DNA from: an uncultured Bdellovibrionales bacterium
GTDB lineage: Bacteria; Patescibacteriota; Minisyncoccia; Moranbacterales; GWC2-37-73
Length of the DNA stretch: 64,000 nt
Direction of reading: 5' to 3'
NCBI GenBank assembly: GCA_964484505.1
Contig: CAZAFB010000002.1
Coordinates: 9,679-73,678 of the forward strand
Of the stretch, positions 1,629-43,860 are shown piece by piece. A model generated the notes under the pieces. That model saw only the letters and a program-made list of their open reading frames with translations. It ran no database searches and was not told the origin of the DNA. The translations under genes and the position numbers were made by a program. How positions within the stretch are numbered: the first letter of the stretch is position 1; the number at the start of each line of letters is the position of its first letter.

Positions 1629-4600
1629 CTATTTAGCAAGGACAAAGGCGGCACTTTTTGCAGTTATTGTGCCGTCAGTATTGGTTTGACACACATACAC
1701 CTCATATTGTCCCCCGGCAAAATCCTTGCTTAATGATATTTCCCAGTTGCCATTATTGTCAGCAATCGTACCGGCAGTTGAAATTTGGCCATCCGAACCA
1801 TAGACGAAAACCGTAATTGAACGATTGCTAGGCACTGTTCCTGTCGCACTCAAAATAACATTGGCGGTTTCATTCTCCACAAATGCGGCATTGATGATAA
1901 TGAAATTATCATTGATTTCGCCTGAAAATTTCGGGTTGGAAAAACTTATTTTATCCCCTTTGTTTCCGTCGGAAGCTTCCAATGGATTATAACCATAGCG
2001 AAGTTCATCGCCATCTAGGAAAGTGTCACCATCGGTATCATATGAATAGGGATTCGTGCCGAGGCGATTTTCTTCTTCATCCACAAGCCCGTCTCCATCA
2101 GAGTCTACCGGCCCGTTGAAAGATTCGGTTGTTTGCGTTTTGACTGTTGGCACCGCTTCGGTCTCGTCCTTGCTTTCCACAATCCACCAGTCGAATGAAA
2201 TATCTTCCGTCACATTACCCTTAACTGAAACAACAAATCCCTCGCTTGGTTTCTTTTGGGTTACGGCGAGCGGATATTCGGCTGCCACTTTTGCCGTTAC
2301 GAATATCTTGGAATTATCAGTGACCGCCTTGGTTTTAATTTCCACATTGCTATTGTTTGCCCTGATGACAGCTTCCCCTATGGTTTTGGCTTCCGGATCC
2401 GTAATTTTAACCGTAAACACTCCTGCAACCATTTCTGCAGCGGTAATTTTGCCATCGAGCAAATCAACATTTCCTATTTCGTCTTTGTATATCATCTTTT
2501 GCACATCAAGCGCAATGGCGAAATCGAGAATTGCTTGATTTTGAGCATTGATCAGTTCCATTTGACTTTCCAATGTGGTGATTCGATTAACTTGGGCATT
2601 GAGCTGACTGCTCAAATCAGCAACTATCGTAGATTGGGATGCGATCGATTGTGTCAACTGAGCTTGAGCCTCGGTTATAATTCTGTTTACCTTGTCCTCA
2701 ACATCCATTTCGGCGATTCTTTGAGATACTTCTTCTTCCACCTTTTCCACGGTGAGCGATTTATTTCTGCGAGAGATGAGCACTTGGATAATTCCTTCTC
2801 CTTGTTGGATAGGCTCAAGAGCAACACCGACAGTAGAATCGCCGGAGTTTGCTTTCATAACATACCCTGGCTTGGTGGCTGCAGTAAGAGAATCTCCCGG
2901 ATTAATCTGTCCGTTTTCTGTGGATACTTTGGCGGGAACTTGTCCGAGCATACCGACGATGACGTAATTGTTGTCGAATTCCCTGCCCGGCTGAGCATTA
3001 CCCAACACTGAAGGAGAAGTGGAGACAATGCCCATAAGGTCAGGATCTTCTGCTCGAGTACAGCGCTTAACAGCATTGGAATTGTTGGTGTCTACGCATA
3101 CTGCTTCCCCAGGAGCAAGATCATGATCTTTTGTTTTGAAGAATTCGGCGTAGTCCGCGCTTCCATTAGTCCAAGCGTTGGAGTTATTAACATAAGCAGG
3201 GCTGGTACCGTCGCTATTCCAGTCTACATAGAACTTATAGGTGGCAGGGCTGGTTACGCCGATTCCCACGTTTCCTGAGCCGTTGATGGTTAGATAGGTA
3301 TTTGATCCTGCAGCTGCGCCGGAACCTATTTTGAAGAAGTCATCGGTATCATCTTGTCCTACATAGAAATCACGGGTGTTGCCGTCAAAGAGAACCAGTT
3401 GATCAGTGGCTGTTCCAGCTCCGAGGGTAATTGATGATTGACTAGTATCGGAACTGGTCATGGTCAAGATGCCGGTATTTCCGGTTGATAGGTTAGCGTA
3501 GTTGGAAGAATTGTAGGAAAGTCTGAGGCCATTGGTTGTGCCAAATATATCCAAGCTTGCTCCTGGCGTGGTGGTGCCAATGCCGAGGCGGCTATTGGTA
3601 TCATCCCAATACATTGTGGAGAATGCAGTCCAGGTACCGGCATTATTATAGAGCATCTGACCTTCTGTTCCGGAAGGCATACCGGATCCTGCCGCTGCCC
3701 AATATCCAGCCCCTGTTCCATCGGAAGTCCATACTTGACCGGAGGTTCCGGCAGAGCCAATGAAATATGCTCCGTAGGTGGATATGTCATAGCCATCGAC
3801 AGTACCGGAGATAATAAGATTGCCATTGATATTTGTATTTCCATTTACATCAAAAAGATACCCTGGGTCGCTGGTTCCGATTCCTACATTGCCATCTTGT
3901 TCTATAACTAAACGATTCAAACCACTGGTAAACATATTGATTCCATAATATCCGGAAACATAAGCTCCACTTTCGCTACCTGCATATGGTGTCGGGCGAT
4001 GAAATCCAAAACCGTAATGGTTCAAATACAATCCATTATAGGTAAAGTCATCATCAGATGTATTTGTGATACCGGGAGAATCATTATCCGTAGCACTTGC
4101 TCTGGAAATCTTGAGAATTCCGTTATTCAAATCAAGTTTTTCTCCCGGACTTGTCGTGCCAATGCCGATATTTGTTCCATTGTCATATATATTGGAATTT
4201 TCCAGGGCACTCGTTCCATTGAAGCGTGGAATGTAATTGTCTGTTCCGGAAATGGATGAAGCGGTTGCGTAATATGAACCATGTTGTCCATCGAGGAGGT
4301 CGGCGTTGAGGTTGGTATTGAGTGTTGTTGAGGTTACGGCTAATGGAGCTGTTCCTGTTGCCAGAGTTGAGGTGAGTTGTCCAGACATATTTAGTGTAGT
4401 GATTCCGGAAATCGCTCCTGCGCTTGAAATGTCCCAATCATTGCTATTGATAGCAATATCATCACCGCCGTCACCGAGTACCACTTGTCCATTTGCAGTA
4501 AGGGTTCCGTTGGACGTCAAGTTCGTGATAGCTGTAATTCCTGCCGGAAAAGTAACGTTCTTGTCTCTATCATAATATTCAGCATTTCTTCTTGCCGCTG

Positions 4601-7600
4601 GATAACCGCCCATCCACTCTATTCCATACAAAGTAAACGGATTCGCATATGTGGCAGATGCAATTGAAAATGTAATTCTAACTTGACCATATTGGGATGC
4701 GTTTGCGCTATACCATATAGGTGTATGAGGTATATAAACATGTCCAGGCCAGTTTGAAGTAGTACCATTGGTTATTTCCGTCCATCCATTGGTATTGTGA
4801 TAAGCTTCAATCTTGAAATTAACATTGTTTCCATTGGTTGAACAATATACATATAAGGCATTAAGAGAAATATATCCTGTACCGCCAGCCGCGTAGTCCC
4901 AAGTTAATCTATAATATCCCGAGCCACCAACGCTTGGCGCAGGTATGGCATTAACACTAGTTGATTGGCCTTCTCCAATCATCAAGTCTTTTAGATTATT
5001 TGTTGAAAGTCTTGTTGATGGCGTCCAAGTAGAACCATCTGCAGATTCTTCCTGCGAATATGCCGGTATAAATCTGAATTTATTATTGAATTGTCCATGG
5101 AAAAGCGCCATTTCTTCTACAGTTGGCGTTCCAAGATTGCTAGTTACGGTATTGAGAGCATTTTTCACTCCGGTTATTGTTCCGTTTACGGTCAAGGTTC
5201 CATTTACAGTTAACAAGTTACTATTAAGAGAAAGGAGGTCCGTATCAGAAGTATGACCTATGTTGGTGCCATCCAATCTTATATTATCAATAGTAGCAAT
5301 AGATCCAGTGTAGGAATTAGAAGTATTTGATAAAGTTAGAGCGTTGCTATATGTTCCAGAAAGCGAAGCATTAAGCAATAAGCCTGAGCCATCAATACCG
5401 TGCGATGTGTCGTCAACATAAAGACCTCCATCAGCCCTAAAATATTGTGGCGTATATATGTTCTTGGCAATATTCTGGTTAATTCTGAACCAAGTAGTGT
5501 CAGTGGAAGTCAATTCACCAACTTGAGTTGTGCCGTTATAGACTTTAATTGTTCCATTGGTATAAATATTGCCATTAACCGAAAGTTTTTCTCCCGGACT
5601 TGTCGTGCCAATGCCGATATTTGTTCCATTGTCATATATATTGGAATTTTCCAGGGCACTCGTTCCATTGAAGCGTGGAATGTAATTGTCTGTTCCGGAA
5701 ATGGATGAAGCGGTTGCGTAATATGAACCATGTTGTCCATCGAGGAGGTCGGCGTTGAGGTTGGTATTGAGAGTGGTTGAAGTCACGGCAAATGGCGCCG
5801 TGCCGGTTGCCAGAGTTGAAGTGAGTTGTCCAGACATTCCGATTGTCGTAACTCCGGAAAATGCTCCAGCGGTTGAAACGTCCCAGCTACTGGAATTTAC
5901 CGCAATAGTGTCTCCTCCATCTCCAATAGTTAGCGCTCCGGTAGTCGTCAAAGTTCCGGAAATATTATTGCTTCCGATTGTTCCTCCAGAAATCGTGATG
6001 GTATCGGCAACATATCCGTCAGCAATCGCATTACCACCCCAGGTTGCGTTCGAAATAGTCGAACCATTTATTGATATGAAACTGCTATTGGAATATATCC
6101 TCAGTGTACCATCAGCATCCAAAGATTGAATACCAGCTCTAAATGTTCCGCCGCTAGTTCCAGAAATGAGCCAAGTAGCTGAAGAGCCTGTGCCCATGGT
6201 AACATTCATACCTCCAGTATCTATACCATTGGTTGATCCCCAGCTACTACTGCGACCAGTTGTATAAACTCTGGAAAATGTCGGGCTGCTTGTTGTGAGG
6301 ACTGCTTGATTTAAATATGAAGCAAATTGATTACCATCCCAAAGATCAGCATTAAGATTGGAGACCAAAGTGGTTGAGGATACTGCTAACGGCGCCGTGC
6401 CAGTTGCAATTGTCGAAATCAATTGATTGTCAGTCCTGATTGCCCCACCGACAACATCAATTTTTGTCCCAGGACTTGTCGTTCCAATTCCAACATTTCC
6501 AGAATTTTTTATGGTCATCTTGACATCAGACATTGACACATTCGTGCCGTCCAGTACACCATTTAACGCAAAATGAAGATCACCAGTACCCCAAGTTCCA
6601 GTCCTTTGATGGTATATGGCTGATTTTATTGAATTTCCTCCTGCCACATATCCCTGAAAACCAATACCAGTCACTTCATTAGAAGCCAAAGGAGCCCCGA
6701 TCACTAATCCCACTTGGTTAGTGTTTGTGTCAACAATATGAGTTTTTGCTATCGAACTCGTCGTTCCAATTCCCACACTGCCCCCTACCGGATTAAGAGC
6801 GAGACTTCCATCATTAGCTATCCCTGTGTGCTTAGACTGAATGAAAGAATAACCAGCAGAACCCGCTCCCGCCACCGCACCAAGTTTGACTCCAACGTCA
6901 TTTAGTCCAGAATCAGTATCGAAACTCATTATTCCATAAGTAGTAGCATCTCCGGAAGTTCCAAGAATTTGTAACTTAGCCTGTGGACTCGTCGTTCCAA
7001 TTCCGACATTACCACTCGAATCTATACGAAGTCTTTCCGTACCGCCGGTTGAAAGTCCCAATGTGTCGGCAATCGGATTATAAATTCCCGTATTCTTGTC
7101 TCCCGTAAAAGTGAGGCTTGGAAGCGCTGCTGTTCCGGAGCCCATTCCGACGGTTCCGTTAAGATAAAGACTTCCGTTTTGGATAGCACTTGATGTCGAA
7201 TCAACGAGACGGGTAATGTCTGTGCGATAATAATCCTCAAATTCTCCGCGATTGTAGTACAATTGGGTCTGCTGTTCAGGAGTTAAATAGGCATCAAAAA
7301 CAGCCAAGCCCGCAATTTGAGCGTTTGCTTGATATGCGCCAGCATCATCCGAACCGATATACAAAGTTTTTCCCGTCGGATCTTGCGGTGTCCAACTGGC
7401 ACTTGAAGTATAACTGTTTCCATTAAGATAACAACGATTGTAGTTCCAATACCATCCGCAAGAAAGATGATTCCAGCCGTATCTGGTCACATCAGTCGTT
7501 GAAGTCGTTGATGTGGTCACCCATGCAGAACCGTTCCAATGATCGATAGAGAAACGATCATTCGTCGCATCCAAACGAACCCGTAATTCATTGGGGATGT

Positions 7601-10600
7601 ATAAAAGATATTTATCCGTATTATCACTTGTGATTGCGCGAGTCCATTGAGGCTTGAACCAGAAAGAAAAACCTCCCTTTTCTGATTTATAACTTGCCGG
7701 TACTGGGTATGACAATTTTTCTCCTGCGCGTGTAATTTCAGCAGTCGTGGTTGGGACATATGTTGTCGGAAAATATACGCTGCCGTTCGCCGCACTACGT
7801 TCAACTTGGATTCCATCAATATAAATGTTGCGGCTGGCGGATGGAAAATAAACTCCCACATCCCAGTTATTTGCGGCAGTGCTATCAAATTCACCGGTCA
7901 AACGATACCAACCATCCCCCAAAGGAGTGTAAGTAGTGGAAAGCGCGGTCAATCCATCATCTGTTCTAGCATAAAGACTTGCTATGGTCGAAGACATGTC
8001 AGCCCCCCAATAGCTTGTTTCATTTCTCCAGACATATGCTGAAACTTGGTGCTTCGTACCGGCAGTAACCTCTGAAAGATCGACTGTTTGGAAAACGCGA
8101 CAGGCAGCAGTGGAAGTCATATTTCCCGAATAAGTGCCATGCAGTGATTTGCCGGTCGATTGCGAAACAGAACATCCGGAACTTGCACTCCACTCACTTG
8201 GCGTCGATTCAAAAGAAGAATTTAGCAAAATATTCTTGCGCGATTCTTCCATATATATACCGAAATTTCCAGTCTTTGTTCCGGTGTCATAATAATAGTT
8301 ATTGGAATCAAACCCGCGATCTATTCGAGGCTCATTGGCGTTCTTGCTGACATATTTCAAACTGTTTTCATCAAGCGCCACCGCGCTACCGCTTGAAGCA
8401 TCAGTTCTTTGGAATGTTCCTACTTCTTTGCGAGAACCATCGATCGTGCCTTCGAAAGGAAGATGCAAGACGATATGCGATGAGAAATTGGAAGAGTTAT
8501 TGAGTCCGACATATCCGGTGTTTATGTATGAAGTGGAAAGAGTCCCTGTACTCACCGAACCTCCATACAATTCGCCTGATACACGTATACTTCCTCGCTG
8601 ATATGTGCGATTGCTTTGCTGAAGCATCACCAAATCACTCCTTTGATAATCCTCTATCGGCGCTTTGTCATTGTATATCTGAAGCACTTCGGCTTTGGTA
8701 AGACTACGACCAAAGATGGCAAAATCGGAAATCAAGGAATCAGCTCTGCCGCCCGCACTTGATTTGCTTCCCACATATAGCAGCGTATTTGTAGCCAACT
8801 GCTGAGTCTGGGCTGTCCATGAGGTCGCCGTAGCGACATATTCAATCCCGTCGAAATTTAAAACAAGTCCGGAAGTTGCATCCCATCTTACCGATACATA
8901 ATGATCTGTTCCGCCAACAAATGTTTGTGCCGGGGAGGAAACGGAAACTGTGGTCCAATTACTGCCGTTATACATCTGCGCATAAACCTTATCATCAGCC
9001 GCGCTATAGAAAATCTGAATAACATTCGGAACCTGCATAAGATAAAGGTCAGTTGCTGGCTTGTCATATGGCCACTCCGGTCTCCACCAAAATGACACTG
9101 TTCCTTTTGCAGGATCGATCAAAAAGTCGCTGCTCTCCGTGTTGCCGGTTCCGCGCCAGGCGTAATAATAGAGTGTTTCCTCGCCGCGGTTTCTTTGATT
9201 TGTGCCATTATTATAGATAAGTGAAGTTTCATATGGCACACCATTGGTGGTGTTGTAATCCGCTTCAATTTGACAACCATCCAATTGAATTTGTTTGCTC
9301 GCTTTGACGTTTACTCCATAATTAATCGCTCCGCCTGTTCCCGTGACTGTTCCCGAAATCTTATACCACCCACCCTCAACAGGTTTATATGAAGTAGCTA
9401 TAGCGCCATTGGCATAAAGCTCAACCACGGAGGAATCAACTGCACTGCGCACTGATCCTGATGTCGTATTTAACGCATAACAATAAAAGGGATAGCTTTG
9501 TCCGCTGGTAAGCGTATGCGAACGATAAGCGTTTCCGCCGGTAGCATTGGTATCACCAAGCGTAGCGGAATATGATTGGTGCTTCTTGTAGCCTGTCGTG
9601 GTGGTGAAAGTTTCCAAACCGCTGTTTGTCCATCCGCTTATTGAGCCACCGTCTTCAAATGAGGCATATTGGAAAAGATTACGTCTGCCGTTTTCCACCC
9701 AAACACCTTTGCCAATGTTTGTTTTTTCAAAGCGCGGAGTGTTGTTATATACATAATCATGGGTTATATATCCTGAGTCTGCAGTATAGGTAGCAGATGA
9801 ACCACTGGAAGTATCCGTTCTGGTATAATAGTCAGTATTTCCGCGAGATGATGAAAGTGAGTTTTGCATCGGCAAATAGAAAAGCAAATCATCGGCAATC
9901 ATTGAATTAGATAATCTCTGACCAGTTGGCAAATCGATATATGTGGAGCCTACTTTCAATCCGAGGTTTGTGTTGTCGCCGACAATATTGAGCAATCCTT
10001 CCGGGTTGGTCGTTCCAATGCCAACGCTTCCTGAAGCGCTGATCCGAAGACGTTCCGTTCCTGCCGTGGAAAAATTCAAAGTGTCATCGCCAGAGCTGAA
10101 CATTCCCGTGTTGGCATCGTTGTTGAAAGAAAAATTTGCATTTGACGCGCTTCCCTGATTGCTATATGCATATATATTGCCTACGCTCGTGATATCATTT
10201 GCGCCAAAGGTGATGTTGCCATTGGCAACCTCCAGGCTGGAACTTGGACTGGAAGTTCCGATTCCGAGTCTTCCGTTTAAATTATCCCAAAAAAATGAAC
10301 CGTTGTTTTGAGTGAGAAGTCCCCCGGTTCCGGCAAAAACCACTGATCCTTGCGTAAATCCGGTGGGAGTTATTGCCCCGGCAATGTTCGTGGCATACAC
10401 GTTTGCCCAACGATATGTGCCTGATCCTAAATTATATGTGTTATCAGCATCCGGTCCGAGATTTCCGGCAATCTGCAACTTGAAATTCGCCGGATTTGTC
10501 GTCCCAATGCCTAGATTTCCTGTACTTTGCTGCAGGAAGACTTGCCCGGAATTGAAGTTAAAATCTCCTGCACTGCCTACTGTCAACCTGGTCGTATCCG

Positions 10601-13600
10601 CTGTTTCCAAGTTTATACTATTGGCAGTACTAGTACCGAGATACATCGTATTGTCAGAATATATGTTAGCACCTGTGCCAAGTCCGCTTCCGGCAATATA
10701 TATGTTATATGTATCAGTAACTTGAAATCTTTTAGAGGGGTTTGTCGTTCCTATTCCGATATTCGTTCCATCGTTATATAGCAACGAATTCGCAACCCAT
10801 CCGGAACCATTGTTGCGTAAGGTTTGCCCGCTTGTGCCGCTTGGCAATGCGCCGCCGCCAGTTAAGTTAACTCCGTTCCAATATAGGTTTCCGCTGACGT
10901 TATACATCTTGTCGGTCACTGTTCCCGGTGCAGTCGTCTGCGCAAGACGAAGGCGACCATTTACATCAAGCGCCTCGGCAGGAGAAGTTGTGTTTATTCC
11001 AACCAAGCCATTATTCAAAACCAAAACGTCGCTATCCCATCCGGCAGCTCCTCTTGTTCCAAACTGCAGTCTAGCATAAGCATTTGTTGTATCGTAATAT
11101 ACTGCGCTTATACCGGCAGCGATGCTTCCGCTAGAAGTGCCTCTGAAGCCTATCCCGGACCACGTGTTATTTGTTCCGTTGGAATTTCTTATTATCAATT
11201 CCTCACCTCTTCCCCAAAGACTCGTGCTCGAATCTGATTTATTCACCTCCAATACAGCAATTGGATTTGTGGTACCAATACCGACATTGCCACCGTTGAA
11301 AGTAAAACCTTGTGTCTGGTTAGTATTGAATTGGAATTGATTGGAACCATATATGATATTGTTACTCGTGTTATTAAAATACAGATTCGCACCACTGCCA
11401 TCACCAATTTGAAGCGATCTGGCCAGACCGGACAAGATAACGTCACCATTGACATCCAATTTCTTTCCCGGACTTGTCGTCCCGATTCCCACATTGCCTT
11501 GAACATAAAGTCCGTTTGTGGGCGCACTATTTCCATAGTCACTCGTTATAGCCAAAGAGCCAACCTTTACAGGCAGTGCCGACCCGCCATCAGAAAAGAA
11601 TCCCGCATATGTTCCAGGTGAATAAATTTGACCGCCGATTCTGATTGCGCCATTTACATCCAAAGTGCGCGCGGGACTCGTTGTCCCAATTCCGACATTG
11701 CCACCAAAATATGATTTTGTTGAACCGGCGGTATAAATTGCAAAATTATTCGTCGAGCCTTTAACTAAATCAAAAACATATACACCATATTGCGTTCCGA
11801 TCGTTCCGGCACCGCTACCGTCATTGACCATCAGGCCATATGCATTGTTAGTAACATGTCCTGCTCCCGAATCAACTCTTGTCCAAAGAGCATGCGCATA
11901 ATCAGTTGTTCCACCGCTTCCATTGTTCCCTATCAACGACAAAACGCCCGTAACCGAGCTTACAGTTCCGCTTGTTATATTTGAACCGGTATTCAATCGC
12001 AAACCTTGCTTAAGTCCGGTATCTGCAATACCAAATGCTGTGTTGATAAATGCTCCATATTGTTCACTGGCGACAGCGGTTGAATATGTCTTCGAAACAG
12101 CAAGCATTGCTCCCGGATTTGAAGTTCCGATTCCGAAATTGCCTCCCATAAAATAACTGTTTCCATTTGTACTTATCTTGGTAGCAACGCCAGAATCGCT
12201 TGTTATATTTAGATATGCATCACCATTGTTTTCCAGTCCGAGACCGCCTCTGAAATTATCCCCACTGTTTTCAAATATTCTGAATGCATAGGTATTATCT
12301 ACTTGAGCTTGAATAGTTCCTTCTACATCAAATTTGTAAGCGGGACTTGTCGTTCCGATTCCCACATTGGTTCCGTTGTTATACAAAACCGAATTTGCAA
12401 TCCATGAAGTTCCGTTGTGACGGAGAGTTTGTCCGCTCGTTCCACTAGGAAGCGCGCCACCGCCGGAAAGATTGACTCCGTTCCAATATAGCGCGCCACT
12501 GACGTTGTAAAGTTTATCGGTCGTCGTAGCAGGCGCGGTTGTCTGCGCAAGACGAAGGCGACCGTTAACATCCAGAATTTCAGCAGGTGATGTTGTGCCG
12601 ATTCCAACGTTGCCACTGAAAAATCCATCTACACTAAAAATATCTCTCCATCTCAAAGAATCACTGCCCAGATCTCTTGTATCATTAGCACTTGGATAAA
12701 TACCGTTGGAAGTAAAATTTAATCTGTTAAATCCAGCAACATATACTTGTAATGTATCGTCTGCGCTTTCATAAAATCCAGTATCTCCATCGCCAAAGGA
12801 AAGTCCGCTCGCAGAAAATGTATAGCTCGTATCACTGATATGAAATCTAGTTGCAGGACTCGTCGTTCCGATTCCCACACGATTATTTGTCGAATCGATG
12901 TTTAAAATGCTGGTGCCGGATGCGTTTTGGAAATTTAGCGCGCTTGTTCCATTTGCCAGCATCCAGGGTTGCGGTTGCATCAGAGTCACTCCGCCGGCTG
13001 CATCCAAAACAACATCTCCGTTGTTAAAAGTGCGCAGCGTCAAATCATTTGATTCGAAAAGTTCGCCAACTTCGATCGTGAACGGCGCATTGGTTTTGAT
13101 ATTCGAAGCAGTTTGATTTGTGAAAATCAAATCATATGCCATCGAAACATCCCCGGAAGCAGTGAAAGAAGTCGGCACATTGAAAGATGCCTGAGTTGAA
13201 GAAATCGTCATCACGTCCGTGCCGCTCGCATTGAGCGTCAAAAGATTCCCGGTTCCATCGGAGCGAATGAAGAGACCTCCGGCGGCAGCACCCGTGTTGG
13301 AGTTATAGAAATTCGCGGCATAATCATTTACCGAAACATCAAGATCAATCGGGCCGTTCAGGTCAAGCGTGCCATTGACGGTCAACATATTACTCGCAAG
13401 ATTCAAAAGGTCGGTGTCAGAGGTGTGTCCGATTGTCGTGCCGTTAAGATAGAGATTATCTACCGTTGCGGCAGTTATATTTTGCAGTGCGCGAGCGGAA
13501 GTCAAAACGCTCGTGCCTCCCATGCGAAGTTCCGCACTGCCGATGATGTCAACATAGCTTGCGCCAGTTGCCAAATATGTCGAAGAAAAAGTCGTTACAT

Positions 13601-14330
13601 CACCGATCGCTCCAGCATTGATATCGATTCCATTGATAGTCTCATCAGTATTCAAAACCATCTGCCCTGACTCGTTGACGTAATATGAACTGGATTGGAA
13701 ATTCAAATTGCCGGTTGGATTCAAGGTCAAGGTTGTTGTTGAGTTTATGTCTCCACCGTTCACATTCACATCTCCGCTAACTGTCAAATTACCGGAAGTG
13801 TCAGTTGTCACAATGTGCGCATTAGCGCCACTAGTGGCACTGTCCAACCCATCAAGCAAATCAGAATTGAAAGCATATCCCGAAGCGCCGACTTTTTTTC
13901 TGGGACTCATCTCACTGTCTGATCCAACTTTGATGCCTAAATAATATGTCGAGTTAAAATCAAGATTGATCGCATTGTCACCGGCAACAGTATCACCGAT
14001 CATGATGGAGAAAATTCCATTGGTAACAGTTACAGCTCGCGCTGTCGGACTTCCGACCGTGCCGCGAGCAGTCCAAACGGGAGTGCCGCCACTAGCCGCG
14101 GCATACAAACTAATGACCATATTGTAACTGCCATCAGCAACCGCAACGCCCGAAGAATTTGTTAATTTTCCCTGATAACTAATTTCTTTCGTGATTGCAG
14201 CATGCGCATATTTTGAATAGACATATACGGAAACAATAACCAAAGACAACGACAAAAAACTTGCTACCATCTTTCGCAATCGAATTTTTTTTGCGTATTT
14301 GCTATTGTTTTTTATATTTCTTTCGTTCAT
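1629..14330 (-). CDS. Giant (4233 aa) membrane-anchored surface protein: phage tail-fibre-like repeats (about 40 copies of N[VI]GIGTTSP), LDGxxxxxY tail-fibre motifs, coiled coil, thrombospondin-type-3-like Ca-binding repeats, C-terminal Ig-like domain
   Basis: Single uninterrupted ORF with an N-terminal hydrophobic anchor (MVASFLSLSLVIVSVYVYS). It has periodic GNVGIGTTSP / LDVNG / LYxNG motifs and two LNADLLDGQHGSYYATASSISGTDNYIPRF segments. Towards the C-terminus there is a coiled coil (SQLNAQVNRITTLESQMELINAQ) followed by DSDGDGLVDEEE...TNPYSYDTDGDTFLDGDEL (DxDxDG Ca-binding). Confidence 0.85.
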   Translation of the reverse strand: MNERNIKNNSKYAKKIRLRKMVASFLSLSLVIVSVYVYSKYAHAAITKEISYQGKLTNSSGVAVADGSYNMVISLYAAASGGTPVWTARGTVGSPTARAVTVTNGIFSIMIGDTVAGDNAINLDFNSTYYLGIKVGSDSEMSPRKKVGASGYAFNSDLLDGLDSATSGANAHIVTTDTSGNLTVSGDVNVNGGDINSTTTLTLNPTGNLNFQSSSYYVNESGQMVLNTDETINGIDINAGAIGDVTTFSSTYLATGASYVDIIGSAELRMGGTSVLTSARALQNITAATVDNLYLNGTTIGHTSDTDLLNLASNMLTVNGTLDLNGPIDLDVSVNDYAANFYNSNTGAAAGGLFIRSDGTGNLLTLNASGTDVMTISSTQASFNVPTSFTASGDVSMAYDLIFTNQTASNIKTNAPFTIEVGELFESNDLTLRTFNNGDVVLDAAGGVTLMQPQPWMLANGTSALNFQNASGTSILNIDSTNNRVGIGTTSPATRFHISDTSYTFSASGLSFGDGDTGFYESADDTLQVYVAGFNRLNFTSNGIYPSANDTRDLGSDSLRWRDIFSVDGFFSGNVGIGTTSPAEILDVNGRLRLAQTTAPATTTDKLYNVSGALYWNGVNLSGGGALPSGTSGQTLRHNGTSWIANSVLYNNGTNVGIGTTSPAYKFDVEGTIQAQVDNTYAFRIFENSGDNFRGGLGLENNGDAYLNITSDSGVATKISTNGNSYFMGGNFGIGTSNPGAMLAVSKTYSTAVASEQYGAFINTAFGIADTGLKQGLRLNTGSNITSGTVSSVTGVLSLIGNNGSGGTTDYAHALWTRVDSGAGHVTNNAYGLMVNDGSGAGTIGTQYGVYVFDLVKGSTNNFAIYTAGSTKSYFGGNVGIGTTSPARTLDVNGAIRIGGQIYSPGTYAGFFSDGGSALPVKVGSLAITSDYGNSAPTNGLYVQGNVGIGTTSPGKKLDVNGDVILSGLARSLQIGDGSGANLYFNNTSNNIIYGSNQFQFNTNQTQGFTFNGGNVGIGTTNPIAVLEVNKSDSSTSLWGRGEELIIRNSNGTNNTWSGIGFRGTSSGSIAAGISAVYYDTTNAYARLQFGTRGAAGWDSDVLVLNNGLVGINTTSPAEALDVNGRLRLAQTTAPGTVTDKMYNVSGNLYWNGVNLTGGGALPSGTSGQTLRNNGSGWVANSLLYNDGTNIGIGTTNPSKRFQVTDTYNIYIAGSGLGTGANIYSDNTMYLGTSTANSINLETADTTRLTVGSAGDFNFNSGQVFLQQSTGNLGIGTTNPANFKLQIAGNLGPDADNTYNLGSGTYRWANVYATNIAGAITPTGFTQGSVVFAGTGGLLTQNNGSFFWDNLNGRLGIGTSSPSSSLEVANGNITFGANDITSVGNIYAYSNQGSASNANFSFNNDANTGMFSSGDDTLNFSTAGTERLRISASGSVGIGTTNPEGLLNIVGDNTNLGLKVGSTYIDLPTGQRLSNSMIADDLLFYLPMQNSLSSSRGNTDYYTRTDTSSGSSATYTADSGYITHDYVYNNTPRFEKTNIGKGVWVENGRRNLFQYASFEDGGSISGWTNSGLETFTTTTGYKKHQSYSATLGDTNATGGNAYRSHTLTSGQSYPFYCYALNTTSGSVRSAVDSSVVELYANGAIATSYKPVEGGWYKISGTVTGTGGAINYGVNVKASKQIQLDGCQIEADYNTTNGVPYETSLIYNNGTNQRNRGEETLYYYAWRGTGNTESSDFLIDPAKGTVSFWWRPEWPYDKPATDLYLMQVPNVIQIFYSAADDKVYAQMYNGSNWTTVSVSSPAQTFVGGTDHYVSVRWDATSGLVLNFDGIEYVATATSWTAQTQQLATNTLLYVGSKSSAGGRADSLISDFAIFGRSLTKAEVLQIYNDKAPIEDYQRSDLVMLQQSNRTYQRGSIRVSGELYGGSVSTGTLSTSYINTGYVGLNNSSNFSSHIVLHLPFEGTIDGSRKEVGTFQRTDASSGSAVALDENSLKYVSKNANEPRIDRGFDSNNYYYDTGTKTGNFGIYMEESRKNILLNSSFESTPSEWSASSGCSVSQSTGKSLHGTYSGNMTSTAACRVFQTVDLSEVTAGTKHQVSAYVWRNETSYWGADMSSTIASLYARTDDGLTALSTTYTPLGDGWYRLTGEFDSTAANNWDVGVYFPSASRNIYIDGIQVERSAANGSVYFPTTYVPTTTAEITRAGEKLSYPVPASYKSEKGGFSFWFKPQWTRAITSDNTDKYLLYIPNELRVRLDATNDRFSIDHWNGSAWVTTSTTSTTDVTRYGWNHLSCGWYWNYNRCYLNGNSYTSSASWTPQDPTGKTLYIGSDDAGAYQANAQIAGLAVFDAYLTPEQQTQLYYNRGEFEDYYRTDITRLVDSTSSAIQNGSLYLNGTVGMGSGTAALPSLTFTGDKNTGIYNPIADTLGLSTGGTERLRIDSSGNVGIGTTSPQAKLQILGTSGDATTYGIMSFDTDSGLNDVGVKLGAVAGAGSAGYSFIQSKHTGIANDGSLALNPVGGSVGIGTTSSIAKTHIVDTNTNQVGLVIGAPLASNEVTGIGFQGYVAGGNSIKSAIYHQRTGTWGTGDLHFALNGVLDGTNVSMSDVKMTIKNSGNVGIGTTSPGTKIDVVGGAIRTDNQLISTIATGTAPLAVSSTTLVSNLNADLWDGNQFASYLNQAVLTTSSPTFSRVYTTGRSSSWGSTNGIDTGGMNVTMGTGSSATWLISGTSGGTFRAGIQSLDADGTLRIYSNSSFISINGSTISNATWGGNAIADGYVADTITISGGTIGSNNISGTLTTTGALTIGDGGDTIAVNSSSWDVSTAGAFSGVTTIGMSGQLTSTLATGTAPFAVTSTTLNTNLNADLLDGQHGSYYATASSISGTDNYIPRFNGTSALENSNIYDNGTNIGIGTTSPGEKLSVNGNIYTNGTIKVYNGTTQVGELTSTDTTWFRINQNIAKNIYTPQYFRADGGLYVDDTSHGIDGSGLLLNASLSGTYSNALTLSNTSNSYTGSIATIDNIRLDGTNIGHTSDTDLLSLNSNLLTVNGTLTVNGTITGVKNALNTVTSNLGTPTVEEMALFHGQFNNKFRFIPAYSQEESADGSTWTPSTRLSTNNLKDLMIGEGQSTSVNAIPAPSVGGSGYYRLTWDYAAGGTGYISLNALYVYCSTNGNNVNFKIEAYHNTNGWTEITNGTTSNWPGHVYIPHTPIWYSANASQYGQVRITFSIASATYANPFTLYGIEWMGGYPAARRNAEYYDRDKNVTFPAGITAITNLTSNGTLTANGQVVLGDGGDDIAINSNDWDISSAGAISGITTLNMSGQLTSTLATGTAPLAVTSTTLNTNLNADLLDGQHGSYYATASSISGTDNYIPRFNGTSALENSNIYDNGTNIGIGTTSPGEKLDLNNGILKISRASATDNDSPGITNTSDDDFTYNGLYLNHYGFGFHRPTPYAGSESGAYVSGYYGINMFTSGLNRLVIEQDGNVGIGTSDPGYLFDVNGNTNINGNLIISGTVDGYDISTYGAYFIGSAGTSGQVWTSDGTGAGYWAAAGSGMPSGTEGQMLYNNAGTWTAFSTMYWDDTNSRLGIGTTTPGASLDIFGTTNGLRLSYNSSNYANLSTGNTGILTMTSSDTSQSSITLGAGTATDQLVLFDGNTRDFYVGQDDTDDFFKIGSGAAAGSNTYLTINGSGNVGIGVTSPATYKFYVDWNSDGTSPAYVNNSNAWTNGSADYAEFFKTKDHDLAPGEAVCVDTNNSNAVKRCTRAEDPDLMGIVSTSPSVLGNAQPGREFDNNYVIVGMLGQVPAKVSTENGQINPGDSLTAATKPGYVMKANSGDSTVGVALEPIQQGEGIIQVLISRRNKSLTVEKVEEEVSQRIAEMDVEDKVNRIITEAQAQLTQSIASQSTIVADLSSQLNAQVNRITTLESQMELINAQNQAILDFAIALDVQKMIYKDEIGNVDLLDGKITAAEMVAGVFTVKITDPEAKTIGEAVIRANNSNVEIKTKAVTDNSKIFVTAKVAAEYPLAVTQKKPSEGFVVSVKGNVTEDISFDWWIVESKDETEAVPTVKTQTTESFNGPVDSDGDGLVDEEENRLGTNPYSYDTDGDTFLDGDELRYGYNPLEASDGNKGDKISFSNPKFSGEINDNFIIINAAFVENETANVILSATGTVPSNRSITVFVYGSDGQISTAGTIADNNGNWEISLSKDFAGGQYEVYVCQTNTDGTITAKSAAFVLAK
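4134..4322. repeat. Intragenic duplication copy 1 (189 bp, identical to 5583-5771); similarity extends to about 4125-4470
   Basis: Base-by-base comparison with 5583-5771 shows identity. It encodes the repeated protein segment SGQLTSTLATGTAP(F/L)AVTSTTLNTNLNADLLDGQHGSYYATASSISGTDNYIPRFNGTSALENSNIYDNGTNIGIGTTSPGEKL. Confidence 0.8.
5583..5771. repeat. Intragenic duplication copy 2 (identical to 4134-4322); similarity extends to about 5575-5920
   Basis: Same evidence as copy 1. Identity decays gradually on both flanks. Confidence 0.8.
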
Positions 14331-14353
14331 TTTTCCGTTGATGCAAATCCTTT

Positions 14354-14496
14354 CTCTATTTTCGTCTTTCCTAAACCACTCTCTTTTTTTCTATCAAACT
14401 CATTTCCTAGAAAATAGTTACATGGATAAATGAAAATGGTTCAAGAAAATGGAAAGAAGAAACATGAATCATTTTTCTATTTTCGTCTTTCCTAAA
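14354..14496. promoter_or_regulatory. Two direct repeats of about 22-60 bp (core ttctattttcgtctttcctaaa at 14354-14375 and 14475-14496) in the 5' leader/promoter region of the giant gene
   Basis: Exact 21/22-bp core repeated 121 bp apart. Both copies are followed by similar T-rich tails (ttttttctatcaaactcatttcc vs ttttcttttttctgcttaacaaatttc). They lie immediately upstream (minus strand) of the start codon at 14330. Confidence 0.4.
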
Positions 14497-14542
14497 ACGA
14501 TTTTCTTTTTTCTGCTTAACAAATTTCTTATTTACTAAAATT

Positions 14543-14983
14543 TCATTCCTTCGGTACAACGTTTATCGATCTTACTTTTTGATTCGTGTCCACATAGATA
14601 TTCAAACTTCCGTCATCATTCTGTTCGATTTGATAGGACCCCTTTATTCCGTTTATTTGCTTACTTTTCTCACTGTTGCGAAAAATCAAAAATCCTCCAA
14701 TCATCAAACCAACCAATAAAATCAAGATTGCCACATAACGCCAAGTCAACCTATTCGCTTTTTCCTTTTCCGTAATTTTTTCCTCAATTATTTCATGTTG
14801 CACTTCAGCTTTGTCCGAGACCCTTTCCAGATATTCCAAAACGTCTTCTCTGGTAACCATCCATTTGCCATCTTTTTTGATCGCTCTGAGACGCTTCTTT
14901 CGTACCAAAAGACCCAGATAATTTGAGTCATATGGGGTCAGCTTTTCAGCCTCTTTAAGTGTGATATATGTCTTTTCCTGCAT
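14543..14983 (-). CDS. Small membrane-anchored DNA-binding protein: N-terminal excisionase/MerR-type helix-turn-helix, central TM helix, C-terminal extracytoplasmic tail
   Basis: ITLKEAEKLTPYDSNYLGLLVRKKRLRAIKKDGKWMVTREDVLEYL resembles HTH_17/excisionase-family DNA-binding domains. It is followed by a hydrophobic stretch WRYVAILILLVGLMIGGFLIF. Confidence 0.55.
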   Translation of the reverse strand: MQEKTYITLKEAEKLTPYDSNYLGLLVRKKRLRAIKKDGKWMVTREDVLEYLERVSDKAEVQHEIIEEKITEKEKANRLTWRYVAILILLVGLMIGGFLIFRNSEKSKQINGIKGSYQIEQNDDGSLNIYVDTNQKVRSINVVPKE

Positions 14984-15086
14984 TTTGCTTTATAAAAGCC
15001 TTTATTTAATTAAATTCAATACTGATTCAATACCCATTCAATACCATATTGGGTACAATTTTCCATGCTCAAATTATACCAAAAAA

Positions 15087-15107
15087 AACGGCTTTTTTAA
15101 AGCCGTT
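15087..15107 (-). terminator. Rho-independent terminator downstream of the LamG giant gene (9-bp stem aacggcttt/aaagccgtt, 3-nt loop, A-run 15081-15086 on plus strand, which is the U-tract on the minus strand)
   Basis: Perfect 9-bp inverted repeat at 15087-15095 / 15099-15107. It is flanked by an A-run on one side and T-rich sequence on the other. Confidence 0.5.
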
Positions 15108-15203
15108 AAACCAAGTTATCCACAGTGAGGGAAACGAATCAAAACGAAACAAATTCACGAATTAAAAACGAATAAAATTGCACGAACATGAAAATTCGTG
15201 TCC

Positions 15204-20680: not shown

Positions 20681-21379
20681 TTACAGTTTCGCTGTTGCCG
20701 TATAGGTTATAATGTTGGAATAAGGTCCGGATTTCTGAGTTGGCGGAGCATCAACTTTGTATTCAATAGTCGTGTTATCACCACCACTGGAATATCCTGT
20801 TTTGGTATGAATAATCGCAGGCGTTAGAGGGAATGACGCATACTTATAATTTGGATTGCTGCCCCATTTCGAATCAACACCTGTTCCCGAAGCAATCGTG
20901 AAGCCAAGCCCCACACCAGACCACACACACGGCGCAATAATAAAACAAGAATAATCCGGGAGAGTAGTGACAGAATCAGAATGCAGCATTGAATGGTTTT
21001 CACTTGCATAAATATCATAACCACCCCAAGAATCAGTGGTGACTGTTATTATGGACTGACCAGTCCTTGCGATTCCAGGAGTAAGCGAACCCAGATTCAC
21101 CGTATTTGAATTAATCGACATGGAAAGTGAATAATTTATCATATACCAAAAACCCTGCTGAGCTGAAAAAGTTTCACTCTGCCCAATGCCAATAACCGGT
21201 TCGCCCAGAGTATCTGTCAACCTGAAAGATTCTGAGGTACCCAAATCACCCGCACTTCCAATAACATCGGAATTGATGCTATATGTCTCGCTGGACATGG
21301 CGGCATAACAATGGCTACTGATTAACAGCCCTGCCATCAGAAAGCCCGCGTATATTAATTTGTTTACTTTGTTTTTCAT
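20681..21379 (-). CDS. Small secreted beta-rich protein, paralog 3 of a three-member family (WxL-like surface protein candidate)
   Basis: Signal peptide (MKNKVNKLIYAGFLMAGLLISSHCYAA). Shares NLGSLTPG, GLGF(T/R)(I/V) and a C-terminal Y.VD.PPTQKSG.Y...ITY.ATAK motif with 24032..24715 and 24799..25449. Confidence 0.6.
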   Translation of the reverse strand: MKNKVNKLIYAGFLMAGLLISSHCYAAMSSETYSINSDVIGSAGDLGTSESFRLTDTLGEPVIGIGQSETFSAQQGFWYMINYSLSMSINSNTVNLGSLTPGIARTGQSIITVTTDSWGGYDIYASENHSMLHSDSVTTLPDYSCFIIAPCVWSGVGLGFTIASGTGVDSKWGSNPNYKYASFPLTPAIIHTKTGYSSGGDNTTIEYKVDAPPTQKSGPYSNIITYTATAKL

Positions 21380-21450
21380 CGAGGTCTAAAAAGAAATATG
21401 TTTCATGGAAAAAAGAAATTTGTTCAGGAAAGGTGAGGGTAACGTCAGAA

Positions 21451-22065
21451 TCACAACACTACCATTCTCTTCTTACGACGATTTAGATCATACACCGTCT
21501 TTTTATGCATCCATGCCAGAATAATTACTATTATTACTCCAGCTGCTATTGTTTTATTACCATCAATCCGAGAAAAGAAATGTGTCACGGCCCCGTCTTT
21601 CTCAATCAAATCAGAAACCACCATGCGCGAATACCTTCCAGAGGAGTCTGTCACAAATAAGCCATAACAATATTTCATTCCCGCAAGCGTAGTTTCATCC
21701 TGATATGAATCTCCGTTTCCGCGATATAATTCCGCGCCATCTCTGGGAAGCAAGGGACATCTATTTTCACTGCGCACAAGCACGACAGCTTCCGTTTCCT
21801 GCAAAGAAATCTTTTTCCAACTTATATACACCCCCCTAAGCAGCTGCTTCACTTGCAAATCTTCAACCCGTGAGGCTTCGTCAGCAGCAGCTTTTCCTGG
21901 AACTGTCGGAAGATCCTCCAAATTTATGGTTTGTGCCGAAACAGGAACAGTAATGGATACGATAATGAAAAAAAGTATGCCCGAAAAAACCGAAGCTGAA
22001 TCGGTAATTACTTTTTTTCCATAGGCATATTTTTCAGGACTGTTTTTTTCTGAAACACAATCCAT
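21451..22065 (-). CDS. Hypothetical membrane protein (N-terminal signal/TM, C-terminal TM)
   Basis: ORF with a hydrophobic N-terminus (SVFSGILFFIIVSITVPVSAQ) and a C-terminal TM (IAAGVIIVIILAWM). Its start overlaps the upstream gene by 32 nt. Confidence 0.45.
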   Translation of the reverse strand: MDCVSEKNSPEKYAYGKKVITDSASVFSGILFFIIVSITVPVSAQTINLEDLPTVPGKAAADEASRVEDLQVKQLLRGVYISWKKISLQETEAVVLVRSENRCPLLPRDGAELYRGNGDSYQDETTLAGMKYCYGLFVTDSSGRYSRMVVSDLIEKDGAVTHFFSRIDGNKTIAAGVIIVIILAWMHKKTVYDLNRRKKRMVVL

Positions 22066-23029: not shown

Positions 23030-23038
23030 TCATGGTTT

Positions 23039-23998: not shown

Positions 23999-24031
23999 AA
24001 TAGCTGTAAATATAATCTTAGGACTGTCTTT

Positions 24032-24715: not shown

Positions 24716-24798
24716 ATAGAAATATCCACGTTTATATCTAAAAGGAGGCAGGGTTTAAATTAATCCAGCGTATTTTAAAAATAATTATTTATCGCATA

Positions 24799-25449: not shown

Positions 25450-25574
25450 CTTGTTATGTTTATTTTTATCTTAAAATGATGGCAATTATCTTGAATTTAA
25501 TCACTAACAATTTTCCCTATCTTTATTATAAAACATACTTATCAGAAATAAAAGTAACATGACTTATCCACAGG

Positions 25575-35169: not shown

Positions 35170-37366
<2,197 letters not shown>

Positions 37367-43728: not shown

Positions 43729-43762
43729 CAGGCAGTCGCTCTAACCAGCTGAGCTACGCCCC
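43687..43762 (-). tRNA. tRNA-Asp (anticodon GTC)
   Basis: Reverse complement gives GGGGCGTAGCTCAGCTGGTTAGAGCGACTGCCTGTCACGCAGTAGGTCGCGGGTTCGAGTCCCGTCGCTCCCGCCA. Cloverleaf has anticodon stem ACTGC/GCAGT, loop CTGTCAC, a T-arm GGTTCGAGTCC and an encoded CCA. Confidence 0.85.
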
Positions 43763-43786
43763 CATCATTAACCCCTCACACCTTTG

Positions 43787-43860
43787 TACCAGGGGAGAGA
43801 TTCGAACTCTCGACCCCAGGCTTATGAGTCCTGTGCTCTAACCAACTGAGCTACCCTGGC
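43787..43860 (-). tRNA. tRNA with CAT anticodon (elongator Met, or Ile2/lysidine type)
   Basis: Reverse complement gives GCCAGGGTAGCTCAGTTGGTTAGAGCACAGGACTCATAAGCCTGGGGTCGAGAGTTCGAATCTCTCCCCTGGTA. Anticodon loop CTCATAA, T-arm GAGAGTTCGAATCTCTC, G1-U72 wobble and no encoded CCA. Confidence 0.75.

What the first reader, a model, noticed from the sequence alone, without database searches (positions are those of the whole stretch)
14543..14983. Membrane-anchored excisionase/MerR-type HTH protein sandwiched between two giant surface-protein genes
The protein has an N-terminal HTH_17-like DNA-binding domain, a single TM helix and about 45 extracytoplasmic residues. A one-component, membrane-tethered transcription factor at this position suggests direct signal-dependent control of the giant genes. 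The function is inferred. The architecture is read directly from the sequence.
Basis: partly seen in the sequence, partly recalled or inferred. Interest (0 to 1): 0.5.

Follow-up and report, generated by a model that had tools for sequence, protein, structure and literature searches.

The report
Membrane-tethered regulator of giant surface gene
A small membrane-anchored DNA-binding protein of an uncultured ultra-small (CPR) bacterium sits at the head of an operon with a giant secreted surface protein and very probably binds a conserved palindrome at its own promoter. In related bacteria the same DNA-binding module is fused directly to giant surface proteins.

Summary
ORF 14543-14983 (- strand) encodes 146 aa. 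It has an N-terminal HTH_17 winged helix (above Pfam's gathering score; AlphaFold pLDDT about 95), one strongly hydrophobic helix (residues 83-101) and a 44-residue tail.

- **Family.** The protein belongs to an unnamed family found in CPR/Patescibacteria metagenomes (600 relatives). The HTH module is always N-terminal, and 76% of the best 152 relatives have a TM helix after it.
- **Synteny.** In at least 10 divergent lineages the small gene lies immediately upstream of a very large secreted-protein gene on the same strand. In other relatives the module is fused to proteins of up to 4,384 aa.
- **Operator.** A 13-bp palindrome, C(A/G)ATAY-N-RTAT(C/T)G, lies just downstream of the -10 box of the small gene's promoter in nearly all lineages. 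In the window it is at 15039-15051, with the right half-site tripled at 11-bp spacing.
- **Covariation.** Base 2 of the half-site covaries with residue 21 of the recognition helix (Asn with A, Asp/Glu with G).

It is therefore most likely a transmembrane autoregulator of the operon holding itself and the 4,233-aa giant. There is no sign that it controls the upstream 1,778-aa gene, and signal dependence is untested. I file it as a new variant of a known kind (transmembrane transcription regulators).

The parts
14543..14983 (-). Gene for the 146-aa HTH_17-TM-tail protein (stop codon 14543-14545)
   Evidence: ORF list. 600 homologues. Purifying selection against L004.
14822..14968 (-). HTH_17 winged-helix DNA-binding domain (residues 6-54). 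Recognition helix about residues 18-28, basic wing RKKRLRAIKKDGKW.
   Evidence: Pfam 29.7 bits against a cut-off of 27. pLDDT about 95. Foldseek matches to BldC, TraN, Xis, RacA and MerR family members. A12, Y18, Y22, R28, W41 and Y51 are at least 90% conserved in 133 relatives.
14681..14737 (-). Single transmembrane helix (residues 83-101)
   Evidence: Hydropathy 2.75. Modelled as part of one continuous helix 45-109. A TM helix follows the HTH in 116 of 152 relatives.
14546..14677 (-). Tail of 44 residues, presumed extracytoplasmic, with a conserved mini-domain of three strands (Y-x-I/V-x-x-D/N...G-N/S-L-x-I-x-V...V-x-V-x-P-K-E)
   Evidence: Strands 117-121, 127-131 and 139-142, pLDDT 57-71. 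The motif is conserved in WIN, L004, L008, L010, L011, L017-L021, L028 and L029.
15073..15101 (-). Promoter-like site with extended -10 (TGgTATAAT; -10 at 15078-15073)
   Evidence: Consensus scan, 10 of 12 matches with TG. A TGnTATAAT-type box stands at the same place in L004, L005, L017, L018, L021 and L033.
15087..15107 (-). Terminator-like hairpin plus T-run. It ends the upstream LamG gene's transcript and overlaps the -35 region of the small gene's promoter.
   Evidence: Conserved with a wobble change in L004.
15039..15051 (-). 13-bp palindrome CAATATgGTATTG, the candidate operator, about +15 to +27 from the inferred transcription start
   Evidence: the only site in the window. Across 149.7 kb of related loci, 11 of 12 pattern matches lie within 160 nt upstream of the small gene.
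15013..15045 (-). Three tandem 11-bp repeats (GGTATTGAATg / GGTATTGAATc / aGTATTGAATt). The first is the right arm of the palindrome.
   Evidence: GTATTGAAT occurs 5 times in the window against 1.08 expected, three of them here. The triplet is kept in L004 although the flanks have diverged.
15116..15124 (-). Perfect DnaA-box 9-mer (TGTGGATAA = complement of TTATCCACA), 37 nt upstream of the -10
   Evidence: The same 9-mer lies 104-141 nt upstream of the small gene in L004, L012, L017, L023 and L025.
14331..14542 (-). 212-nt spacer between the small gene and the giant gene. It holds two copies of a 64-nt repeat (14346-14409, 14467-14530). No promoter-like or terminator-like site was found in it.
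1629..14330 (-). Downstream 4,233-aa giant secreted protein, the probable operon partner. Signal peptide with AHA|A site, then a conserved N-domain (residues about 45-161, nt 13848-14198, 'ISYQGKLTN...').
   Evidence: The N-domain is 40-48% identical to the gene downstream of the small gene in L005, L008, L012 and L013. It is 36% identical to residues 201-316 of the fused protein P0129.

Best explanation
The gene encodes a transmembrane transcription regulator built on an HTH_17 (excisionase/MerR-like) winged helix.

**Proposed mechanism.**
1. The N-terminal domain stays in the cytoplasm. It is held about 25 residues from the membrane by a helix that continues into the single TM segment. The protein probably pairs through that long helix.
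2. The pair binds the palindrome CAATAT-g-GTATTG and its 11-bp-spaced repeats. These lie just downstream of the -10 box of the protein's own promoter.
3. From that position it most likely represses an operon consisting of itself and the downstream 4,233-aa secreted fibre or adhesin gene. This would be negative autoregulation.
4. The conserved tail outside the membrane, about 30 residues in three strands, is the likely input. Its most plausible contact is the conserved membrane-proximal N-domain of the giant protein. That would resemble ToxR-ToxS or VtrA-VtrC, where the partner is encoded immediately downstream.

**Shown here.** The domain, the TM helix, the conserved synteny, the fusions, the conserved palindrome at the promoter, and the covariation between protein and site.

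**Inferred.** Actual binding, dimerisation, the sign of regulation, co-transcription, topology, and the nature of any signal.
For: **Domain and fold.**. The basic patch RKKRLRAIKKDGKW on helix 2 and the wing is conserved across the family.

**Family architecture.** Among the 152 best relatives the HTH module is always N-terminal. 116 have a TM helix a median of 35 residues after the last HTH, and 120 carry 2-3 tandem HTH domains. 101 of 133 hit Pfam HTH_17.

**Synteny.** Across proteins only 26-45% identical, the small gene lies -4 to +44 nt upstream of a giant gene on the same strand (212 nt in the window).

**Fusion.** P0129 (Candidatus Vogelbacteria) is HTH-HTH-TM joined directly to the same 'INYQGK' N-domain that opens the window's giant.

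**Operator.** C[AG]ATAY-N-RTAT[CT]G lies 8-32 nt after the -10 box in most lineages. 11 of 12 occurrences in 149.7 kb fall in the 2% of sequence immediately upstream of the small gene. It occurs once in the 64-kb window.

**Covariation.** Asn21 goes with CAATA half-sites in 8 of 9 loci. Asp/Glu21 goes with CGATA half-sites in 8 of 10 loci (Fisher p = 0.001). L017 and L018 carry Asn21 and CAATA-type half-sites (L017 also one CGATA-type) but nest inside the Asp21 clade, also in a tree built from residues 45 to the end. So the switch happened at least twice. The covarying bases are 10 bp apart, one helical turn, as expected for a dimer. Asn-adenine and Asp/Glu-cytosine contacts are standard recognition pairs (my own knowledge).

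**Spacer.** No promoter or terminator was found between the small gene and the giant.
Against: - No binding experiment exists, and another factor could bind the palindrome.
- The covariation rests on about 19 loci and few independent switches.
- The site lies in the transcribed leader. Doubled palindromes (L029, L033) could also fold as RNA hairpins.
- Positive-inside charges do not fix the topology.
- In the window the spacer is 212 nt with a duplication, so a separate promoter for the giant cannot be ruled out.
- The fused relative P0129 shows no clear copy of the palindrome upstream.
- Conservation of the HTH across proteins with very different ectodomains would also fit a shared ligand that is not an operator.
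Confidence: 0.6

Rival explanations
1. The protein is a structural tether, not a signal-responsive switch. It is the detached membrane anchor of the giant fibre, and its tail holds the signal-peptide-cleaved giant at the membrane. Its HTH pins the operon's DNA to the membrane so that the 12.7-kb message is transcribed, translated and exported in one place (transertion).
For: In relatives the same module is the physical N-terminal anchor of giant proteins (P0129, P0032, P0112). The split-form giants have AXA-type cleavable signal peptides, so they would need an anchor. The tail is a conserved mini-domain. The operator sits at the start of the operon, which suits tethering as well as repression.
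Against: A site overlapping +1 to +50 is the classic position for repression. In some loci (L010, L019, L021, L028) the downstream gene lacks the INYQGK domain.
Confidence: 0.2
2. The HTH_17 domain is used for protein-protein contact, as RodZ's HTH binds MreB or the MerR-like CbpM binds CbpA. The conserved palindrome is bound by some other regulator.
For: CbpM and DafA appear among the fold matches. The HTH core is nearly invariant across proteins with unrelated ectodomains. Architecture censuses count RodZ-type HTH_25 proteins as transmembrane regulators although they are cytoskeletal (plus my own knowledge of RodZ).
Against: The covariation of residue 21 with the half-site base is hard to explain if the protein does not read the DNA. 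The basic helix-2 and wing patch is retained. The closest fold matches are DNA complexes.
Confidence: 0.1
3. It is an excisionase (recombination directionality factor) of an integrated mobile element, and the 11-bp direct repeats are its binding sites in an attachment site.
For: The domain family is the excisionase family. Xis proteins bind closely spaced direct repeats (my own knowledge). A large serine recombinase lies at 42103-43728.
Against: A TM helix is conserved. No integrase is adjacent, since the recombinase is 27 kb away. Synteny with chromosomal surface-protein genes holds across lineages 26-45% identical. The NCBIfam excisionase model scores below its cut-off.
Confidence: 0.03

Closest known systems
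Transmembrane transcription regulators with a co-component: ToxR/ToxS, TcpP/TcpH, VtrA/VtrC, CadC
   Same: N-terminal cytoplasmic DNA-binding domain, a single TM helix and a short domain outside the membrane. The partner is encoded immediately downstream in the same operon. The regulator acts from the membrane (PMC10269533 and the PMC9214523 abstract).
   Different: The DNA-binding domain is HTH_17, not the OmpR-type Trans_reg_C. The organisms are CPR bacteria, not Gamma-proteobacteria. The putative partner is a secreted protein of 750 to over 4,000 aa, not a small periplasmic protein. The site lies downstream of the -10 box, which suggests repression rather than activation.
BldC, lambda-type and mycobacteriophage Xis, TraN (small HTH_17/MerR-like DNA binders)
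   Same: Same fold, rmsd 1.3-1.9 A over about 50 residues. These proteins bind closely spaced repeats, and TraN has two such domains in one chain, like the tandem-HTH relatives (my own knowledge, plus PDB titles).
   Different: These proteins are soluble, and none has a TM helix or an ectodomain. No sequence-level match to any PDB chain was found for the HTH part.
MerR family regulators
   Same: A winged HTH followed by a long helix. The whole-length Foldseek match is to HiNmlR, a MerR protein without a sensor domain.
   Different: There is no MerR or MerR_1 Pfam hit for this protein. There is no effector domain. The long helix ends in the membrane. The operator is not in a 19-20-bp -35/-10 spacer.
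RodZ
   Same: Cytoplasmic HTH, a single TM helix and an extracytoplasmic domain.
   Different: RodZ has HTH_25 and DUF4115, and its HTH binds MreB. Neither domain is found here, and a candidate operator exists here.
HTH_17-Fic proteins and 68-80-aa 'excisionase family DNA-binding proteins'
   Same: They are the nearest sequence relatives of the HTH outside the TM family (E = 1e-9 to 1e-18 with the family profile).
   Different: They have no TM helix, carry a Fic domain or nothing else, and come from other phyla.

Membership tests
Pfam HTH_17 (PF12728), excisionase/MerR-like winged helix | Profile match at or above the gathering score | tested here: met
   29.7 bits against 27, residues 6-54 covering profile positions 1-49 of 51. 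101 of 133 relatives also match.
Pfam HTH_17 (PF12728), excisionase/MerR-like winged helix | Fold: strand, helix, helix, two-strand wing, helix | tested here: met
   AlphaFold2 model with pLDDT about 95. Foldseek local matches to BldC, TraN, Xis, RacA and CarH at rmsd 1.3-2.1 A.
Transmembrane transcription regulators (operational class of Demey et al. 2023, PMC10269533) | A recognised DNA-binding domain plus at least one TM region in one polypeptide | tested here: met
   HTH_17 accounts for 151 of 50,302 such proteins in that census, and Patescibacteria are not mentioned in it.
Transmembrane transcription regulators (operational class of Demey et al. 2023, PMC10269533) | Sequence-specific DNA binding and control of transcription from the membrane | not testable with these tools
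   Indirect support only: a conserved palindrome at the protein's own promoter, and covariation with residue 21.
ToxR-like receptors | OmpR-type Trans_reg_C DNA-binding domain | tested here: not met
   No Trans_reg_C hit even at E <= 10.
MerR family | MerR or MerR_1 profile match, and an operator within an overlong -35/-10 spacer | tested here: not met
   No MerR-family Pfam hit for the query, and 1 of 133 relatives hits MerR_1. The palindrome lies 21 nt downstream of the -10 box.
Excisionase / recombination directionality factor | TIGR01764 match above its cut-off, and association with an integrase and attachment sites | tested here: not met
   14.8 bits against 28.8. The neighbours are surface-protein genes in all lineages.
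RodZ | HTH_25/XRE-type HTH plus a DUF4115 ectodomain | tested here: not met
   Neither family is found.

The most novel reading that the evidence does not exclude
CPR bacteria have a family of 'adhesin-coupled transcription factors'. In these, a sequence-specific HTH_17 domain in the cytoplasm is either fused to a giant surface fibre, as (HTH)2-TM-ectodomain of up to about 4,000 residues, or split from it as a small partner. The state of the surface fibre (assembly, load or host contact) would then be read out directly at the fibre's own promoter. That would be a one-protein, Notch- or ToxR-like route from host contact to gene expression in episymbionts that have few classical signalling systems.
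Probability: 0.3. Interest if true: 0.8.

Novelty: new variant of a known kind. Interest (0 to 1): 0.6.

Why it matters
CPR/Patescibacteria are thought to live attached to host cells, and giant surface proteins are thought to mediate that attachment. How those costly genes are controlled is unknown, and these genomes have few recognisable regulators. This work gives three things.
- **A defined family.** Its members are single or tandem HTH_17, a TM helix and an ectodomain of variable size.
- **A concrete cis-element.** It comes with a predicted specificity rule: Asn21 reads A and Asp/Glu21 reads G.
- **A conserved genetic link to giant genes.** The link includes natural fusions.

Together these make the question directly testable with a gel shift and a reporter. 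If the fused forms do bind DNA, a surface protein of thousands of residues carrying its own DNA-binding domain would be an unusual signalling design for bacteria.

Tried and rejected
- **Genome-collection scan.** The scan with the 29-sequence alignment failed for lack of a conserved stretch. The narrower alignment found only 2 loci.
- **PDB sequence search.** The family profile gave only TM and coiled-coil noise and no HTH relative.
- **Tail-to-giant contact.** I tried to test it by folding a chimera of the tail, a linker and the giant's N-domain.
- **The 64-nt repeats in the spacer.** I considered them as binding sites. They are absent from L004 and all other lineages, so I dropped them as operators.
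- **Spacer comparison with L004.** Only the ends align.
- **Excisionase and RodZ readings.** Both were rejected on the membership tests.
- **Organism names.** None could be retrieved for window proteins. The lineage is inferred from relatives named Parcubacteria, Moraniibacteriota, Vogelbacteria, Minisyncoccales and Patescibacteria.
- **Literature.** Searches found no description of this family.

Full report
**1. The observation**

The ORF at 14543..14983 (- strand) starts with ATG and encodes 146 residues. Pfam HTH_17 matches residues 6-54 at 29.7 bits, above the gathering score of 27. The NCBIfam excisionase model matches only below its cut-off.

One 19-residue window reaches a Kyte-Doolittle mean of 2.75 (residues 83-101), and 44 residues follow it.

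An AlphaFold2 model built on 29 relatives gives pLDDT 95-97 for residues 11-50. Its order is strand, helix, helix, two-strand wing, then a helix that runs unbroken from residue 45 through the TM segment to 109, then three short strands in the tail.

Whole-chain Foldseek E-values are weak because of the long helix. The local matches are uniformly MerR/excisionase-type DNA binders: BldC, TraN, CarH, RacA, Pukovnik Xis, SoxR and MtaN, at rmsd 1.3-2.3 A over 45-59 alignment columns.

The flanking genes on the same strand are a 4,233-aa protein downstream (Laminin_G_3, TSP3_bac, Big_13) and a 1,778-aa protein upstream (six Laminin_G_3 domains, DUF2341).

**2. The family**

An exhaustive phmmer search found 600 relatives at E <= 1e-3. 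Among the best 152:
- The HTH module is always at the N-terminus (median first residue 7.5).
- 120 carry two or three tandem HTH copies.
- 116 (76%) have a hydrophobic helix a median of 35 residues after the last HTH.
- The part beyond the TM helix ranges from 8 to 4,063 residues.

Pfam sees HTH_17 in 101 of 133 relatives and almost nothing in the ectodomains. Long members carry adhesin- or fibre-type domains. P0112 (4,384 aa) has Laminin_G_3. P0032 (2,077 aa) has collagen repeats and Peptidase_S74.

Named sources are all CPR/Patescibacteria metagenome-assembled genomes, and all entries read 'hypothetical protein'. With the family profile, the nearest relatives outside the TM family are HTH_17-Fic proteins and 68-80-aa excisionase-family DNA-binding proteins. 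No curated family covers the full-length protein.

**3. Genomic context**

In every lineage for which flanking DNA could be read, the small gene lies just upstream of a very large gene for a secreted protein, on the same strand.

| Locus | Gap to next gene | Next gene |
|---|---|---|
| L012 | -4 nt | at least 2,334 aa |
| L013/L015 (Moraniibacteriota) | 36 nt | 1,967 aa |
| P0014 contig | 28 nt | at least 2,851 aa |
| L008 (Parcubacteria) | about 26 nt | at least 1,072 aa |
| L023 | 4 nt | 756 aa |
| L017, L018, L005 | 10-22 nt | runs off the contig end |
| L019 | 33 nt | at least 1,988 aa |
| L021 | 106 nt | 1,726 aa |

In eight of these lineages, counting the window, the downstream protein opens with an Ala-X-Ala signal peptide followed by the same 'I/F-N/S-Y-Q-G-K/R-L-T' domain as the window's giant. 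That domain is 40-48% identical.

The small secreted proteins and the WxLIP_PGBD-like proteins with C-terminal anchors at 20681-25449 are also conserved in L008, L012 and L013. The upstream 1,778-aa LamG gene is not.

In L004 (82% identical protein) two selfish ORFs, 23S_rRNA_IVP and GIY-YIG, have inserted on either side of the small gene without breaking the order.

P0129 (Candidatus Vogelbacteria, partial) is HTH-HTH-TM joined directly to that same N-domain, at 36% identity to the window's giant. This is a natural fusion of the two window genes.

**4. A candidate operator**

In the window, a terminator-like hairpin (15107-15087) ends the LamG transcript. An extended -10 box (TGgTATAAT, 15080-15073) follows. 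Twenty-one nucleotides further on lies CAATATgGTATTG (15051-15039). Its right arm is repeated twice more at 11-bp spacing, with GTATTGAAT at 15044-15036, 15033-15025 and 15022-15014.

In L004 the triplet is intact while the sequence between it and the -10 box has diverged.

The same kind of 13-bp palindrome lies 8-32 nt after a TGnTATAAT-like box in other lineages.

| Locus | Palindrome |
|---|---|
| L005, L012 | TCAATACAGTATTGA |
| L008 | CGATACCGTATCG |
| L019 | CGATACAGTATCG |
| L021 | CGATACGGTATCG |
| L028, L029, L033 | doubled palindromes |
| L010, L013, L017, L018, L023 | variants |

The pattern C[AG]ATAY-N-RTAT[CT]G occurs 12 times in 149.7 kb of loci. Eleven of these fall in the 160 nt upstream of the small gene. 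The twelfth, in L011, lies in the spacer after the small gene, next to a DnaA-box 9-mer. In the 64-kb window the site is unique.

**5. Covariation**

Residue 21, in the first turn of helix 2, is Asn where the half-site is CAATA. This holds in 8 of 9 loci: the window, L004, L005, L012, L023, L025, L018 and L031. It is Asp or Glu where the half-site is CGATA, in 8 of 10 loci: L008, L010, L013, L019, L021, L028, L029 and L033. Fisher p = 0.001, without phylogenetic correction.

L018 (Ser-Ala-Asn) and L017 (Ser-Ser-Asn) nest within the Asp21 clade in neighbour-joining trees. This also holds in a tree built from residues 45 to the end only. Both carry CAATA-type half-sites, and L017 also keeps one CGATA-type half-site, so it looks like a hybrid. 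The switch therefore happened more than once.

The covarying bases are positions 2 and 12 of the 13-mer, 10 bp apart. That is the spacing expected for two recognition helices in successive major grooves. Asn-adenine and Asp/Glu-cytosine are common contacts (my own knowledge). This is the strongest argument that the protein itself reads the site.

**6. Mechanism**

The most economical reading is a membrane-tethered, probably dimeric, autoregulator. It would sit on its operator at about +15 to +52 and throttle an operon made of itself and the giant gene. No promoter-like or terminator-like site was found in the 212-nt spacer.

The tail is conserved as a small three-strand unit across proteins that are otherwise 30-40% identical, which suggests it has a partner. 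The obvious candidate is the membrane-proximal N-domain of the giant, because the two are covalently joined in P0129. That would make this a 'co-component' system in the sense used for ToxR/ToxS and VtrA/VtrC (PMC9214523 abstract).

None of the following could be tested here: binding, dimerisation, the sign of regulation, the signal, or tail-giant contact.

**7. Rivals**

- **Non-regulatory tether.** An anchor for the cleaved giant that also pins the locus to the membrane fits the fusions and the cleavable signal peptides. I cannot separate it from regulation by sequence alone (0.2).
- **Protein-binding HTH**, like RodZ or CbpM. This is disfavoured by the covariation (0.1).
- **Excisionase.** This is excluded by the TM helix and the chromosomal synteny (0.03).

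**8. Comparison and novelty**

Transmembrane transcription regulators are a known and widespread class. HTH_17 makes up 151 of 50,302 such proteins in the census of Demey et al., which does not mention Patescibacteria. Four literature searches found no description of an HTH_17-TM family tied to giant genes.

The protein is a member of Pfam HTH_17 and of the operational transmembrane-regulator class. It is not a ToxR-like, MerR-family, RodZ or excisionase protein by the tests above.

I rate it a new variant of a known kind. What is new is the DNA-binding domain type, the lineage, the conserved pairing and fusion with giant surface proteins, and the operator with its specificity rule.

**9. Verdict**

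Confidence in the autoregulator model is 0.6. Interest is 0.6.

Noticed in passing
window 15116-15124, 25564-25572, 52896-52904 (all - strand); L004, L012, L017, L023, L025: The perfect DnaA-box 9-mer TGTGGATAA/TTATCCACA stands 26-37 nt upstream of TATAAT-like boxes at three intergenic sites in the window (5 copies against 0.75 expected). It also lies 104-141 nt upstream of the small HTH gene in five other lineages, in either orientation. It could be a DnaA-controlled or otherwise shared promoter element of these bacteria.
   Followed up: partly
window 14346-14409 and 14467-14530: Two copies of a 64-nt segment (77% identical, 21-nt exact core TTTAGGAAAGACGAAAATAGA on the - strand) lie 121 nt apart in the spacer between the small gene and the giant gene. 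This is a local duplication of the giant's leader and is absent from L004 and other lineages.
   Followed up: partly
window 20681-25449 (- strand): A conserved accessory cluster. It holds three proteins of about 204-232 aa that look secreted, one more of 216 aa, and two of about 320-330 aa with weak WxLIP_PGBD matches and C-terminal anchors. Homologues accompany the HTH-TM gene and the giant in L008, L012 and L013. The cluster resembles the WxL/Csc cell-surface-complex loci of Firmicutes.
   Followed up: partly
L004 3515-3916 and 4784-5092: In the 82%-identical relative, a 23S_rRNA_IVP (four-helix-bundle) ORF and a GIY-YIG nuclease ORF are inserted just upstream and downstream of the small gene. 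The promoter, the operator and the gene order are all preserved.
   Followed up: no
L011 about 660 and 737: In this lineage the DnaA-box 9-mer and the palindrome (CGATACGATATCG) lie after the small gene, in the spacer before the next gene. This suggests the regulatory module can drive the downstream gene alone.
   Followed up: no
window 14984-14994; L004, L019, L028, L029, L033: The nucleotides just before the start codon are conserved as AAAGCAAA(T)-ATG across divergent lineages, with no Shine-Dalgarno-like sequence at the usual distance. This may be an unusual translation-initiation leader.
   Followed up: no
window 42103-43728 (+) and 43687-43966 (-): A large serine recombinase gene (Resolvase, Recombinase and Zn_ribbon_recom domains) ends inside a cluster of three tRNA genes (Asp, Met, Met). 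This may be the edge of an integrated element.
   Followed up: no
window 27397-34950 (- strand): A third giant gene: 2,517 aa with 14 RCC1 repeats followed by many fn3 and purple-acid-phosphatase-N-type domains. It lies 7 kb upstream of the cluster, next to gyrB (35170-37302).
   Followed up: no
relatives P0171-P0261: The closest non-membrane relatives of this HTH are N-terminal domains of Fic-family proteins of about 310 aa, from many phyla including archaea. This is a recurrent HTH_17-Fic architecture.
   Followed up: no
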